Source: Hormiphora californensis (lineage: Eukaryota > Animalia > Ctenophora). From it: a DNA stretch of 64,000 nucleotides. The notes below the pieces were generated by a model. It did not search any database and was not told the origin of the DNA. It saw only the letters and a list, made by a program, of their open reading frames with translations. The stretch covers positions 7,316,001 through 7,380,000 of the forward strand of contig CM035358.1 in NCBI GenBank assembly GCA_020137815.1, given 5' to 3'. A program made the translations under genes and the position numbers. Shown piece by piece: positions 8,071-34,646 of this stretch; the stretch's first letter is position 1, and each line of letters starts with the position of its first letter.

Positions 8071-8806
8071 TCACCTTCCCCCGCTTGTTCTAGGCAGGTT
8101 TCCAGCCCCTAAACTACCGTCAGCATTGAATCTTGGTATTACAGAGAGGATTAGGTTGCCAAAGATACTATCTTGGGTCACAAAGAATCCGTCACTGTCT
8201 TGGTTACTGCCCTGAAGAAGAGGGGATATTGAAAGAAGATCAGAGAATCTCTATTATCAAAAAAACAAGTGACGGTGACATAACCCTCATCTCCAAAACT
8301 TGGTAACGAAATTACCATCTCCAAATCGCCCGTGTGTTACCTGGAGTGCCTTTAGTTTGCTGGCATGTAACCTGCTAGCCTCTGCTGGGGTCCTTTCAAT
8401 GGGTTCTGGTACTACAGGTTGGGAGATCATAGCAGGTGGCTGTTGTGGGTGGCTTCCCACACCTATATAGGGGGAGAGGGAAATTAACATGGTTTGTTGT
8501 AAGATGGTTTAACATGTTCATGTTGGGACGTCATGAGATAAACTGCCAAGTTAATTAAACTTTAATTTCGGAGAGTTAATAACGTACCGTTGTTGTTCTC
8601 AATTTTGCTCTGAAGTTGCATTTTCTTGCTCTGCAGATCCTCAAGCAACTTTATTCGCTTGATAGCTGAAAACAAAACAGAGGTTGACACAAAACTAGGA
8701 GAAGAAAAGCTTTGACATATGGAGCCTTCGGATCTAAAGATTTTTTTAATTTTTAACCCCCCCCCCCCCTTTTTCGGGTCTAAAGATTTCTACCGTTGTC
8801 ACCCAT
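8071..8806 (-). CDS. INIP: SOSS complex subunit C (INTS3 and NABP interacting protein), 4 exons, ~117 aa
   Basis: Exons 8794-8806, 8588-8665, 8341-8462 and 8071-8211 splice in frame (GT-AG): MGDNAIKRIKLLEDLQSKK...KLKALQGSNQDSDGFFVTQDSIFGNLILSVIPRF. This matches the SOSS-C C-terminal motif GYFITQDSAFGNLILPVLPR. Confidence 0.85.
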
Positions 8807-9027
8807 CCACTACTGGCCAGCTCGCTCTGTTCTCTCTCCTTCTAGTTCATGGACACTTCATGGTGGTGGTCTTTTTGTCATGCTACCAAGATATAACTGT
8901 TTGAGTATTTAATGGGGGGGGGGGGAATTAGTGTTTAAAATTAGAAGGGGGACAGGTCGAGGGGGGAGGGGGTTAGGGATGGAACTCAGAAAAAAGACTG
9001 AATAAAACATCAAAAACAGTAACTAAA

Positions 9028-12000
9028 TTAGGCGACAAGAGCTGAAGCGGTAGCACTCTCGTATTTCCAGTTAGGAGGGAGGACGGACTTGGTCTTGTAA
9101 TACCGGGCAAGTTTGTGGATTCGGCTCTCAATCAGAATCAACCTGGAGAATAGTAATAATATTTTAACATTAACTGTGTCAGTGTAACATTAACAAATGT
9201 TTGCATAATATAATGTCAAGGGAGATGTTAACAAGTACATGTAATGTCAACAAGAGATAATAAGATAAGAGATAAGATAAGAAATGTTAACAAGTGTACC
9301 TGTATTTGGAGTCCTTGTCCTGCCTGTTCTTCTCCAGATGTTTCCTGATGGCCACGGCCTTCTTGATCAGGTGGTACAGGTCCTCTGGTATCTTACTGGC
9401 GAGCCCCTTAGCACGAAGGATCCGGAGAATCTTGGTGCCAGTGACGTGTCGGACCTGGTTGACACCGTGGGAGTCCCGGAGGATGACACCAATTTGAGAG
9501 GGGGTCAGTCCCTTCTTGGACAATTTGTAGATCATCTCCTTTACCTCATCTCCAGTCAACTTCTGCCACTGTGAGAGAGGGGGAGAGAGAGATGTTATGG
9601 GTTGTCATGGAAACATGCTAATTGTTAATATTGGGTTGTATTAACAGTGCTGACACACTACGGTTTAGATTGATTGGAGAAGGGTGTTTTTACCAGAGTT
9701 CTCCTCCAGCTGAGGGGGAATCATCATGACGTCATCATGAGTTATGACGTCACATCATGTGACACTCTGGAGCTGGGAGGGATAGTGGAGGAAGGGGAAA
9801 GGGAAGCACACCCCGTGCCTGAACAAAGTTTAACCTCGGATGAAAAATGTCCCCTAAGCGGACTTCACTAGGGTCTTCAGATAGGTATTTGGAGTGGAAA
9901 AATGTAAAAAAACACCCCATTTTTATGAGAAGGTTTTTCTCTACATGGATTTTAAAATGGGTCGTTTTGACTGTAAAAACGGCTTAGAAACCATGCTGTG
10001 TGCAGATTTATTGTCCTTTTCCGGTAAAATGGTTGTACCTGACCTGGTTTTGCATGTAGAATCGATTGCCGGTGAAGAGAAATCTCTAAAACGACTGGAA
10101 CATGGTCAAAAGTTGATTTTTTGACGTTTTTTGAGGGTTTTTCGGCCCCAACCCCATCATGACATCAAAATAGAAAATTTTCACTAGTGTCAAACGTTAA
10201 AATGGACATTTTTCTACCGGATCCCAAAGTTTCAGATAAATCGAATGAAAGGGTAACATTTGGCAAATTATTGAAAGTGGCTATATGAGAGAAAGTGAAC
10301 TTGAACTTAATTTTTTCACAATTTTGGTCTTTTTGACCAACTTCTGATTGAAATGGCCAATCAGGACCATGCTCACGCTAAAGAAGGGACAATTTCCTAC
10401 TAAAATGCAAATTTTCATGCCGATGCGACATCAGATCATGGATTTATAGTAAATTTAAGCGAGCTAACTAGGCTATTTCTACTGTCAGAAAAGGTCAATT
10501 TTTCTAATTTTCGGGTCAATTAGCAATAAAAAAGGGTACCCGACCTATTTTTCACCGTAGAATTGATTTCCGATGGAGTTGGACCTCTAGATCGCCAGGA
10601 AAATTGAAGAAAACGAATATTTCAGTTTTTTGGGGAAATAGCCAGAAAATGGTAATTTAGTGTCAATCGGCAATCAAAAGGGTTCCCAGCCCAATTTTTC
10701 ACGTAAAATCGCTCTAAAATGGAATTGGAGCTCTTAATCTACGAGAAAATAGGTCAATTTCATTTTTTTTGTTTTTTTACTCATTTTCTGGCTACATTTA
10801 CCCGAAAAACTGAAATATTCGTTTTCTTCAATTTTCCTGACGATCAAGAGGTCCAACTCCATCGGAAATCAATTCTACGGTTAAAAATAGGTCGGGTACC
10901 CTTTTTTACTACCAATCGACCCGAAAATAAGAAAAATTGACCTTTTTTTGACAGTAAAAATAGCCTAGCTAGCTCGCTTAAATTTGCTACAGATCCATGA
11001 CCTGTTGTCGTATCGGCATGAAAATTTGCATTTTAGTAGGAAATTGTCCCTCCTTTAGCGTGAGCATGGTCCTGATTGGCCATTTCAATCAGAAGTTGGT
11101 CAAAAAGGCCAAAATTGTGAAAAAATTAAGTTCAAGTTCACTTTCTCTCATATAGCCACTTTCAATAATTTGCCAAATTTTACCCTGTTATTGGATTTAT
11201 CTGAAACTTTGGGATCCGGTAGAAAAATGTCTATTTTAACGTTTGACACTAGTGAAAATTTTCTATCTTGATGTCATGATGGGGTTAGGGGCGAAAAACC
11301 CTCAAAAAACGTCAAAAAATCAAATTTTGACCATTTTCCAGTCGTTTTAGAGATTTCTCTTCACCGGCAATCGATTCTACATGCAGAACCAGGTCAGGTA
11401 CAACCATTTTACCGGAAAAGGACAATAAATCTGCACACAGCATGGTTTCTAAGCCGTTTTTACAGTCAAAACGACCAATTTTAAAATCCATGTAGAGAAA
11501 AACCTTCTCATAAAAATAGGGTGTTTTTTTACATTTTTCCACTCCAAAATCCAAATACTTATCTGAAGACCCTAGTGAAGTCCGCTTAGGGGACATTTTT
11601 CATCCGAAGTTAAACTTTGTTCAGGCACGGGGTGAGCAGTGACAGTGGTCATCCGACATAATTGCCATACCTCGACGTGAAATTCGACCTGAATCTCGAC
11701 CTGGAATGAGGTGCGCATTCGTAGTGAGCGAGACACAAAGACTAACGAGAGAGAAGAGTTGAAGCGCGACATCATTTGCTTACTGCGGCACATCTCTCTG
11801 ATGCGCGCCTCATTCCAGGTTGAGATTCAGGTCGAATTTCACGTCGGAATATGTCGGATGACCACTGTGACACTGCTCTCTCCCATTACCCACCAATAGG
11901 GGAAAGGGAAGCAGTAATCCTGCTCTCTCCCATTACCCACCAACAGCACAAAGCAGAGCAATGGGCTCAACTCAGCACTTTGGGTTCCCCACAGTGTAGG

Positions 12001-33128: not shown

Positions 33129-33390
33129 TTAGAGGGTGCTTAAGGTGGGTGTTTGTGTGGTTAACGTTTTGGAATAATGGGGGTGTTTGACGGGGGTGGA
33201 AGAAAGGAAAACGCAGTTCGTTTGTTTTGCTATAAGAAGAATAAATTAAATTTAAATTACTGTGCTGTCGGTTTAAAAATGTTAAAACAGATCCTCATCC
33301 CATCAAAAGATATCCTCAGTGTGTTTCTTAGAGAAATCCTCATCACGCGGGGGGACTATATCTCTCCCTTCTTCCCATTATCATCCCTGT

Positions 33391-34007
33391 CTAGATGAGT
33401 AGTTTCTCTATGGCTCCATGGATGGTTTGGATCTGGGGTTTCAGCTGGGACCCCTCGTTAACGGTGACAGTAGCGGCAACCACTGCTCGGCTCACTCCGC
33501 AAGCACGACCTGACGAAATATTGGGGTTAGGGTTGCCTGGCTAGATTGTGTTTCGGGCGCCCCGCACCCGAAACTCCTTTACAAATGAAAAGGGAGGGTT
33601 AGAACATAACAAGGTTAGGGATGCGAGATATAGGGGATGAAGTGGTAAGATGGGTAATGGAGGGTCGACGAGGGGTCTATTGATGACATTCTGAGGATTA
33701 TTCTATCTATCAAACTGTTCCTTGAACACTTACCAAGGGCTTGTTTGCTCCGGACGAACACGTAAGGGATGTTCTTGTCCTCACACAGAAGGGGAATGTG
33801 CAGAAGAATCTCAATGGGGTTAGCATCAGCTGCCATGATAACAAACTCTGCAATTCCTCGGTTCAGGCACTTAGTGGACTCGTTAGCACCTTTCTTGACC
33901 TGTTTGTAGTTGACTGCCTGTTGTACCAGATCCAGAATGTTAGTTGTCAGGTTTGAGTCAGCGAGGGGGTAAGCCCTGGGGTTAACGGAATCGTCTCCAG
34001 CCATCAT
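33391..34007 (-). CDS. SNU13: SNU13/NHP2L1 (15.5K kink-turn binding protein), 2 exons, 130 aa
   Basis: Exons 33734-34007 and 33391-33509: [10 protein letters not shown]...[18 protein letters not shown]...[32 protein letters not shown]...IEKLLI. Confidence 0.97.
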
Positions 34008-34646
34008 CTCTCTGCCTAATAAGCTTCACGGAGATCTAAAACAGTTAGCTTAGGTTAATCAATGGTGTTTCAATCAATATTGATATGTCGCTGTCTCGTT
34101 CAAAAACCGATAGCGACCGGCCTAATTCGCAGTTTCCGGCTTTTGGTCAAAATCAAAATTCCAAATAATATCATGGCCGCTCTATTCGTCCCTTACGAGC
34201 CGGGAGCGCACTGCGCAAGAGGGCAAGTCAAAAGAGCCGTCAGCCGCTCAATTCACGACAGAGGACCGAAAAAATCGGTCACTTTCGATTTAAATTTTTT
34301 TTCCGACGTCGCGAACATTTTGTTTTCGAAACTTCAAAAAGTATAAAATCAAACAATTGAGCTTAAATAATTAAGCCGCGCCGCGCGTTTTCTTTGCGCG
34401 TTCAACAAATTAGCGCTGGAAAGTGCCAGGGAATCTTGACCCTTCACCTGTTATGTATTACCCTGTATCCAATGGATGCTCCAAGCTGTGTAGTTATTAA
34501 AACTACAGCTCTAAGTCAAACGAATTTACTAAACAATAACACTTTCTTCAGTGGAAAATGAAAACAAATTCAAACTGATTCAAAATATGCTTCATAATCA
34601 GGCAAATTAGAGTCCATCACTCCATCGATTCTTTAACTGGGCAAAA

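What the first reader, a model, noticed from the sequence alone, without database searches (positions are those of the whole stretch)
8071..34040. Candidate trans-spliced animal operon: SNU13-H6PD-NIPBL-RPS13-INIP
Seen: five unrelated housekeeping genes lie on one strand, with stop-to-ATG gaps of about 262, 290, 621 and 221 bp. U-rich tracts follow the stops, most clearly after H6PD and RPS13. Each ATG is preceded by an acceptor-like site: ttcttcttatag (~33230), tctctctataatag (~30582), CTAAC...attag (~12218 and ~12262) and CTAAT...aaacag (~8897). I saw no convincing donor within the four gaps. A CpG-rich, promoter-like stretch lies upstream of SNU13 (~34190-34400). Known: nematode and tunicate operons are resolved by spliced-leader trans-splicing at such unpaired acceptors, and SL trans-splicing is reported in ctenophores. 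Inference: a ~26-kb polycistronic unit.
Basis: partly seen in the sequence, partly recalled or inferred. Interest (0 to 1): 0.8.

Follow-up and report, generated by a model that had tools for sequence, protein, structure and literature searches.

The report
Likely comb-jelly operon cut by leaders
In comb-jelly DNA five unrelated housekeeping genes sit head to tail only 221-621 bases apart, the first gene's messenger RNA carries the comb-jelly spliced leader, and the first three genes appear to stay together in distant comb jellies, so the block is likely read as one or two long RNAs that leader splicing would cut into single messages, an operon layout that I found no report of in this animal group.

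Summary
The layout is real: SNU13, H6PD, NIPBL, RPS13 and INIP lie on the minus strand with stop-to-ATG gaps of 262, 290, 621 and 221 nt. The window is from a Pleurobrachia-like ctenophore. A spliced INIP contig starts at AG 8883, not 8897; its 28 foreign letters were not shown. One relative's SNU13 contig has poly(A) 1-10 nt past the predicted H6PD acceptor, as in zero-spacer Ciona operons. Mnemiopsis SNU13 and NIPBL are two locus tags apart, and 9 of 10 long H6PD contigs match a SNU13 or NIPBL contig in length. CpG-rich stretches flank the block, and none lies in the gaps. Against: no RNA bridges a gap, no promoter data exist, at least 56% of ctenophore reads carry SL anyway, the acceptor motifs do not beat shuffles, and gap 3 holds donor-like sites. 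H6PD has three frame breaks. Verdict: SL-resolved operon likely (0.65); one five-gene unit about 0.35. The scan noted another candidate operon in this genome (e1-10649461).

The parts
34206..34405 (-). CpG/CGCG-rich stretch, candidate promoter of the unit
   Evidence: 20 CpG in 200 nt, o/e 2.17, 5 CGCG; promoter role inferred
34036..34046 (-). SL trans-splice acceptor of SNU13 (TAG, AG at 34037-34036); mRNA body starts at 34035
   Evidence: X4 contig loose end = 15 letters of the published SL plus adapter; X2 and X3 contigs also stop at 34041; the 15 letters occur nowhere in the window
33391..34007 (-). SNU13 (NHP2-like 1), 2 exons, intron 33733-33510
   Evidence: PF01248; 99% to P. bachei over exon 1; intron skipped in X1 and X4 contigs
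33220..33231 (-). Gap 1 boundary: predicted H6PD acceptor (AG 33231-33230) with the SNU13 poly(A) site 1-10 nt past it
   Evidence: X1 record 2 lays to 33221, then 19 A on the mRNA strand; SL on H6PD not seen; no AATAAA or ATTAAA in the gap
30837..33128 (-). H6PD (GDH/6PGL), no intron found; three frame breaks near 33005, 32920 and 32817 in this sequence
   Evidence: 87% to P. bachei, 44% to Bolinopsis; tblastn frames -3, -1, -2, -3; Pfam
30547..30836 (-). Gap 2 (290 nt): U-rich tract 30765-30726; candidate acceptors TAG ending 30583 or 30570
   Evidence: no RNA contig covers it
12816..30546 (-). NIPBL, model of 35 exons and 1985 aa without internal stop
   Evidence: built against M. leidyi NIPBL; PF12830; a few junctions are best guesses
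12195..12815 (-). Gap 3 (621 nt): donor-like sites at 12716, 12707, 12696, 12424; (GA)n tract; 42-nt tandem duplication of the acceptor unit (12202-12285); candidate acceptors ending 12260, 12218, 12200
   Evidence: no RNA laid here
9028..12194 (-). RPS13, 3 exons; introns 12122-9569 and 9299-9143
   Evidence: PF08069, PF00312; second intron skipped in an X1 contig; loose ends at 9568 read as exon 1
8807..9027 (-). Gap 4 (221 nt): U-rich tract 9027-8988, ATTAAA at 8913-8908, CAG ending 8897, TAG ending 8883 (RNA-supported 5' junction of INIP)
   Evidence: X4 record 10 lays from 8884 after 28 foreign letters
8071..8806 (-). INIP (SOSS-C), 4 exons; introns 8793-8666, 8587-8463, 8340-8212
   Evidence: PF15925; all three introns skipped in X4 record 10
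7671..7870 (.). CpG/CGCG-rich stretch just beyond the block's 3' end
   Evidence: 20 CpG in 200 nt, 7 CGCG; what it drives was not found

Best explanation
These five comb-jelly genes likely form an operon: polymerase II would start in the CpG-rich stretch upstream of SNU13 and run through the short gaps, and the single ctenophore spliced leader, which RNA shows on SNU13, would be trans-spliced to a TAG acceptor before each downstream gene to release capped single-gene messages. Shown: layout, gene identities, SL on SNU13, a foreign 5' end on INIP at a TAG, poly(A) of SNU13 at the H6PD acceptor in one contig of a close relative. Inferred: one promoter, read-through, SL on H6PD, NIPBL and RPS13, and coupling of the upstream 3' end to the downstream acceptor with no spacer (Ciona or SL1 type) at gap 1 and perhaps gap 4. 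Within this reading I split the odds about evenly between one five-gene unit (0.35) and two units or a hybrid operon with a second start in gap 3 (SNU13-H6PD-NIPBL and RPS13-INIP, 0.30).
For: SL letters on SNU13 in X4, with contigs of two studies ending at the same base. INIP contig begins at the AG of a TAG after 28 unlaid letters; 28 plus 2 is 30, the overlap expected where many transcripts share a leader in a 31-mer graph (graph argument is inference). SNU13 poly(A) 1-10 nt past the H6PD acceptor and no AATAAA in gaps 1-3, as in Ciona operons where cistrons abut and 16 of 18 lack the signal (PMC1488885, passages). ATTAAA 25-30 nt before the INIP acceptor would put the RPS13 3' end on it too (inference). 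M. leidyi SNU13 and NIPBL are G015996 and G015998 on one contig. 9 of 10 H6PD contigs of 20 kb or more share their exact length with a SNU13 or NIPBL contig, in five H6PD lineages 43-73% identical, including contigs of 25, 37 and 79 kb, although Hormiphora and Mnemiopsis share blocks of at most four genes (PMC8527503) and split about 180 My ago (PMC12221973). CpG-rich stretches flank the block and are absent from the gaps.
Against: No contig bridges any gap. SL letters were read only on the first gene, where they say nothing about co-transcription; SL is on at least 56% of Hormiphora reads. The INIP 5' letters were not printed and X4 contigs often carry adapter ends. The poly(A) rests on one contig of depth 5 from a relative about 90-95% alike whose DNA I could not see, over an A-rich genomic stretch; an X4 contig stops at 33260. 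Acceptor motifs are not above chance, and gap 3 has donor-like sites that would give introns of usual size, 165 or 207 nt. Linkage is read from locus tags and contig lengths, with no strand or spacing; the gene G015997 was not seen; Bolinopsis SNU13 and H6PD accessions are 811 apart on a 17-Mb contig; RPS13 and INIP linkage was not tested. Ctenophore synteny can also be held by chromatin loops. CpG content is a weak promoter proxy, since ctenophore methylation is said to target transposons (PMC12460157), and CpG-rich patches also occur in introns (14 at 29607, 15 at 11807).
Confidence: 0.65

Rival explanations
1. Five separately transcribed genes, each with a compact promoter in or overlapping its upstream neighbour's 3' end, each losing a short outron to the same SL; order kept by overlap of regulatory DNA or by chromatin loops.
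For: SL is common in ctenophores (at least 56% of reads); no bridging RNA; gaps of 221-621 nt can hold a core promoter (general knowledge); genes inside Mnemiopsis loops keep synteny better; four same-strand neighbours arise by chance 1 time in 16.
Against: Poly(A) of SNU13 on the H6PD acceptor leaves no room for an outron outside the SNU13 message; gaps lack the CpG/CGCG signature seen at both flanks; the 875-nt gap to the upstream kringle gene, also same-strand, does have it.
Confidence: 0.27
2. The downstream acceptors are ordinary cis acceptors fed by short non-coding first exons, and only SNU13 is trans-spliced.
For: Gap 3 has donor-like sites at intron-typical distance from the RPS13 acceptors; the 28 foreign INIP letters were not shown.
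Against: Gaps 1 and 4 have no donor at the 10th-percentile score; the INIP 5' letters did not lay anywhere in 7900-9790; the two RNA-supported 5' acceptors are TAG while 35 of 40 cis acceptors are CAG.
Confidence: 0.08

Closest known systems
Ciona intestinalis SL-resolved operons (PMC1488885, passages read; PMC7986045, passages)
   Same: One SL for mono- and polycistronic genes; upstream poly(A) site on the downstream acceptor; mostly no AATAAA. Gap 1 here looks the same.
   Different: Ciona operons are mostly two genes and its ribosomal-protein genes mostly avoid trans-splicing and operons; here five genes with RPS13 inside. Dicistronic cDNAs were found in Ciona, none here.
C. elegans SL1-type and SL2-type operons (as described in PMC1488885 and PMC7986045, passages)
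   Same: Unrelated housekeeping genes head to tail; SL1-type lacks a spacer; U-rich tract upstream of the acceptor.
   Different: No second, operon-specific leader was seen or tested; SL1-type operons keep AATAAA, gaps 1-3 here do not.
Hydra RFC140-flp operon (PMC3273482, passages)
   Same: Non-bilaterian; short T-rich gap with a trans-splice acceptor.
   Different: Proven by reporters (co-expression, no promoter in the gap, AG needed); two genes; none of these tests has been done here.
Chaetognath operons (PMC12460157, passages)
   Same: No operon-specific leader; housekeeping and ribosomal-protein genes; up to nine genes.
   Different: Called genome-wide by gene distance under 250 bp plus SL reads; here only stop-to-ATG gaps are known, and SL letters on one gene.
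Ctenophore SL trans-splicing (Hormiphora, PMC8527503, passages)
   Same: Same leader sequence on the SNU13 message.
   Different: That paper has no occurrence of 'operon' or 'polycistron'; PMC7986045 (2021) states that operons have not been reported in ctenophores.

Membership tests
SL-resolved eukaryotic operon | Same-strand genes in close tandem | tested here: met
   Gaps 262, 290, 621, 221 nt stop to ATG; no genome-wide background available
SL-resolved eukaryotic operon | Organism uses SL trans-splicing at this locus | tested here: met
   15 letters of the published SL at 34041 on SNU13
SL-resolved eukaryotic operon | Every downstream gene receives SL | tested here: inconclusive
SL-resolved eukaryotic operon | Polycistronic precursor across the gaps | tested here: inconclusive
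   No contig bridges gaps 1, 2 or 4; shallow metatranscriptome contigs cannot show absence
SL-resolved eukaryotic operon | Single promoter, none in the gaps | not testable with these tools
   Only a CpG proxy; needs CAGE, ATAC or reporters
Zero-spacer (Ciona or SL1-type) operon | Upstream poly(A) site coincides with the downstream acceptor | tested here: inconclusive
   1 contig at gap 1 fits; RPS13 poly(A) not reached; gaps 2 and 3 no data
Zero-spacer (Ciona type) operon | No canonical poly(A) signal in the upstream cistron | tested here: met
   No AATAAA or ATTAAA in gaps 1-3; gap 4 has ATTAAA, so met for 3 of 4
Nematode SL2-type operon | Operon-specific second leader | not tested
   No leader letters were read on a downstream gene
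Conserved operon | Gene order kept in relatives | tested here: inconclusive
   Linkage of SNU13, H6PD, NIPBL supported indirectly; strand, spacing and RPS13-INIP untested

The most novel reading that the evidence does not exclude
Probability: 0.35. Interest if true: 0.8.

Novelty: new member of a known kind. Interest (0 to 1): 0.6.

Why it matters
A 2021 methods paper lists ctenophores among groups with SL trans-splicing but no reported operons (PMC7986045), and my searches (listings only, open-licence papers only) showed no later report. If true, operons exist in the earliest-branching animal lineage that trans-splices, which bears on whether SL splicing predictably leads to operons and on whether zero-spacer operons are convergent, a question that PMC1488885 calls important. 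It would help explain rare islands of conserved gene order in otherwise shuffled ctenophore genomes. It also matters in practice: promoter calls from annotated 5' ends would be wrong for downstream genes, and a gap sequence could serve for two-gene reporters in Mnemiopsis, as in Hydra. The locus is named down to Mnemiopsis locus tags, so public long-read and chromatin data can test it at once.

Tried and rejected
No whole genome is held, so no genome-wide spacing or promoter background. Run X5 held only a distant INIP piece with a 103-letter unlaid 5' part, of which the 30 letters shown are not SL. Lack of cover on H6PD 5', NIPBL and the gaps is no evidence either way; depths were not used to rank genes. 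A degenerate H6PD motif scan of metagenome contigs gave 2 loci, both unrelated prokaryote-like DNA matched out of frame. H6PD in genome contigs: 73 pattern hits, 0 confirmed. 10 of 10 window exon products were absent from the exact look-up, so RPS13 and INIP linkage stayed untested. Mnemiopsis tags G015996-G016000 were not in 6 searchable supplements of PMC12221973; 2 picture files were not searched; a full-text search for them gave noise. Derelle 2010 (PMC2844618) is not held, so I saw nothing of it; it may discuss operons. PMC2760879 was not read. RefSeq accession order was rejected as a position proxy for Bolinopsis. The bacterial promoter scan is not applicable. No SL gene lies in the window, so the leader on SNU13 is not a local cis exon. 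Five uncertain NIPBL introns were dropped before building splice matrices (34 of 40 used with one RPS13 intron also left out). Short repeats matched at 30201-30221 and 33593-33613 were treated as noise.
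Full report
Organism and genes. The window is animal DNA with small introns (median about 157 nt among 34). The 647-aa H6PD stretch is 87% identical to a Pleurobrachia bachei protein and 44% to Bolinopsis microptera, then 24-38% to other organisms in the best 120 hits, so it is a ctenophore close to Pleurobrachia. All five genes are on the minus strand. Pfam confirms SNU13 (PF01248), H6PD (PF00479, PF02781, PF01182), NIPBL (PF12830), RPS13 (PF08069, PF00312) and INIP (PF15925). 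A NIPBL model built against the Mnemiopsis protein has 35 exons and 1985 aa with no internal stop. A sixth same-strand gene, a secreted kringle-like protein (ATG 38281, stop ending 34883; kringle match below Pfam's cut-off), ends 875 nt before SNU13.

Sequence signals. With matrices from 34 introns of these genes, the best acceptor within 105 nt of each ATG was reached by 44, 170, 120 and 398 of 500 shuffles (gaps 1-4), so these motifs alone are not evidence. The two sites that RNA supports score poorly (8883: -2.1; nothing above -3.3 before SNU13), so leader acceptors may differ from cis acceptors. Both are TAG, whereas 35 of 40 cis acceptors are CAG; n is 2, so this is a lead. Donor-like sites at or above the 10th percentile: 0 in gap 1, 1 in gap 2 (downstream of acceptor 30583), 4 in gap 3, 0 in gap 4; shuffle means 0.38, 0.64, 2.66, 0.38. 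'No donor' therefore fails for gap 3 and is unremarkable elsewhere. U-rich tracts after H6PD and RPS13 (26 T of 40) exceed all 35 short introns; the other two do not. They lie in presumed 3' UTRs, where U-rich DNA is common (general knowledge). No AATAAA or ATTAAA occurs in gaps 1-3; gap 4 has ATTAAA at 8913. The best 200-nt windows upstream of SNU13 and downstream of INIP each hold 20 CpG with 5 and 7 CGCG; those of the gaps hold 7, 2, 7, 2 CpG; the maximum in 129 tiled windows inside the block is 15. This is a proxy only: PMC12460157 (passages) says ctenophore methylation targets transposons.

RNA. Four marine metatranscriptome-type runs of three studies hold small shares (0.05-0.07) of the query; all are contigs, of this species or close relatives. 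On 28500-35500 an X4 contig has a loose end at 34041 made of 15 letters plus Illumina adapter. Reverse-complemented, the 15 letters equal the part of the ctenophore leader printed in PMC8527503 that lies just before its last six letters, and those six match 34041-34036 in 5 of 6 places. The leader is thus joined at AG 34037-34036. X2 and X3 contigs (two studies) also stop at 34041 with 5 and 1 unlaid letters. The letters occur nowhere in the window. The SNU13 intron is skipped in X1 and X4. X1 record 2 lays down to 33221 and then has 19 A on the mRNA strand. Genomic 33229-33221 is 7 of 9 A, so the tail starts 1-10 nt past the AG of the predicted H6PD acceptor (33231-33230). This is one contig of depth 5 from a relative (16 mismatches and 20 gap letters in 444), so a genomic A-run in that relative is not excluded; an X4 contig stops at 33260 with adapter. 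H6PD is touched only at 32083-32314, and the H6PD and NIPBL 5' ends not at all. On 7900-9790 X4 record 10 is a fully spliced INIP message whose first 28 letters do not lay and whose match begins at 8884, the AG of TAG 8885-8883. 28 plus 2 equals 30, the overlap expected when many messages share a leader in a 31-mer graph (inference from how such contigs are built, recalled). The letters were among 17 loose ends not printed, and adapter ends are frequent in X4, so this is suggestive only. RPS13 contigs do not reach poly(A). No contig bridges a gap. Both tables were cut (13 and 39 pieces not shown).

Conservation. Mnemiopsis leidyi SNU13 is KAL5250117.1 (G015996) and NIPBL is KAL5250119.1 (G015998), on one 14.6-Mb contig, with one locus tag between that I could not see. 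Among 24 H6PD records with a contig length, 10 lie on contigs of 20 kb or more; 9 of the 10 share their exact length with a listed SNU13 record (25,186; 36,710; 1,426,622; 17,428,893) or NIPBL record (78,768; 289,683; 293,941; 349,206; 1,903,459); 0 of 14 short ones do. They fall in five H6PD lineages, 43-73% identical to each other; four of the nine belong to one lineage (95-98%), so they are not independent. Equal length is taken as the same contig; strand and spacing are unknown, and megabase contigs say little. Background: Hormiphora and Mnemiopsis share colinear blocks of at most four genes (PMC8527503, passage) and split about 180 My ago; genes within chromatin loops keep synteny better (PMC12221973, section 9 read). 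RPS13 and INIP could not be tested.

How it likely works. A promoter at about 34200-34400 (inferred) gives a precursor whose short outron is replaced by SL at 34036 (shown). Polymerase would continue; SL attack at the next TAG would cap H6PD and leave the SNU13 3' end at the same place for poly(A) addition (inferred from one contig and from Ciona, where cistrons abut and 16 of 18 lack AATAAA; PMC1488885, passages). The same would repeat before NIPBL, RPS13 and INIP (inferred; INIP partly seen). Gap 3 is the weak joint: it is longest, has donor-like sites at intron-typical distance, and precedes a ribosomal-protein gene after 18 kb of NIPBL, so a second start there is as likely as not. Odds: operon in some form 0.65 (one unit 0.35, two units or hybrid 0.30), separate SL-spliced genes 0.27, cis-spliced first exons 0.08.

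H6PD frame breaks. The first 320 nt of H6PD need three frame changes (near 33005, 32920, 32817) to follow homologues, while 5,958 nt of NIPBL need none. Seven of eight ctenophore homologues have the intact signal-peptide start; the P. bachei model lacks it. A local assembly fault or a null allele are both open. It does not alter the layout.

Comparison and novelty. It works like an SL-resolved operon, closest to the Ciona zero-spacer type; membership is not proven, because downstream SL, a precursor and a single promoter were inconclusive or untestable, and no defining feature failed. PMC7986045 (passage) says operons are unreported in ctenophores; PMC8527503 has no 'operon' or 'polycistron', nor has PMC12221973. 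Searches (listings only) showed no ctenophore operon paper; subscription papers, Derelle 2010 among them, are not covered. The scan has an unreviewed note of another candidate operon in this genome (e1-10649461), which I did not test and do not count as support. Rating: new member of a known kind, interest 0.6.

Noticed in passing
window 32815-33128 (-): Three frame breaks in the H6PD 5' end, same direction, net in frame, with a stop soon after the first; assembly fault or null allele.
   Followed up: partly
window 12202-12285: 42-nt tandem duplication (95%) of the branch-point and acceptor unit before RPS13; NIPBL acceptors near 27719-27775 and 26778-26870 also look locally repeated.
   Followed up: partly
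window 16927-17011 (-): tRNA-Ser(AGA) gene inside a NIPBL intron, same strand.
   Followed up: no
window 9806-11637: Fold-back element in RPS13 intron 1 with 616-nt arms 95% complementary, plus a 53-nt hairpin at 11666-11853.
   Followed up: no
window 34036, 8883 against 40 introns: Both RNA-supported 5' acceptors are TAG without the C-rich tract; 35 of 40 cis acceptors are CAG.
   Followed up: partly
window 29400-29610 (-): CpG/CGCG-rich patch inside NIPBL intron 3 that resembles the flanking promoter-like stretches; possible enhancer or loop anchor.
   Followed up: no
window 8881, 8861, 8850 and 30556: Short upstream ATG frames lie between the acceptors and the main ATG of INIP and NIPBL.
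   Followed up: no
window 12775-12815, 9720-9750, 17860-17915, 22660-22720: Clusters of TGACGTCA-like repeats recur after the NIPBL stop and in introns, likely ends of a repeat family.
   Followed up: no
window 35265-35426: An X2 RNA contig over an intronic repeat of the kringle gene shows only A>G differences (9 places, 7 listed); editing or another copy of the repeat.
   Followed up: no
window 1500-4290 and 4289-5368: Long array rich in GGCGCC palindromes next to a truncated LINE piece with PHD and reverse-transcriptase matches.
   Followed up: no
window 55575-57870: Low-GC satellite rich in ATCGAT-type words, CpG o/e up to 5.
   Followed up: no
window 13107-16737: Last NIPBL intron (3.6 kb) is made of nested tandem and inverted repeats.
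   Followed up: no
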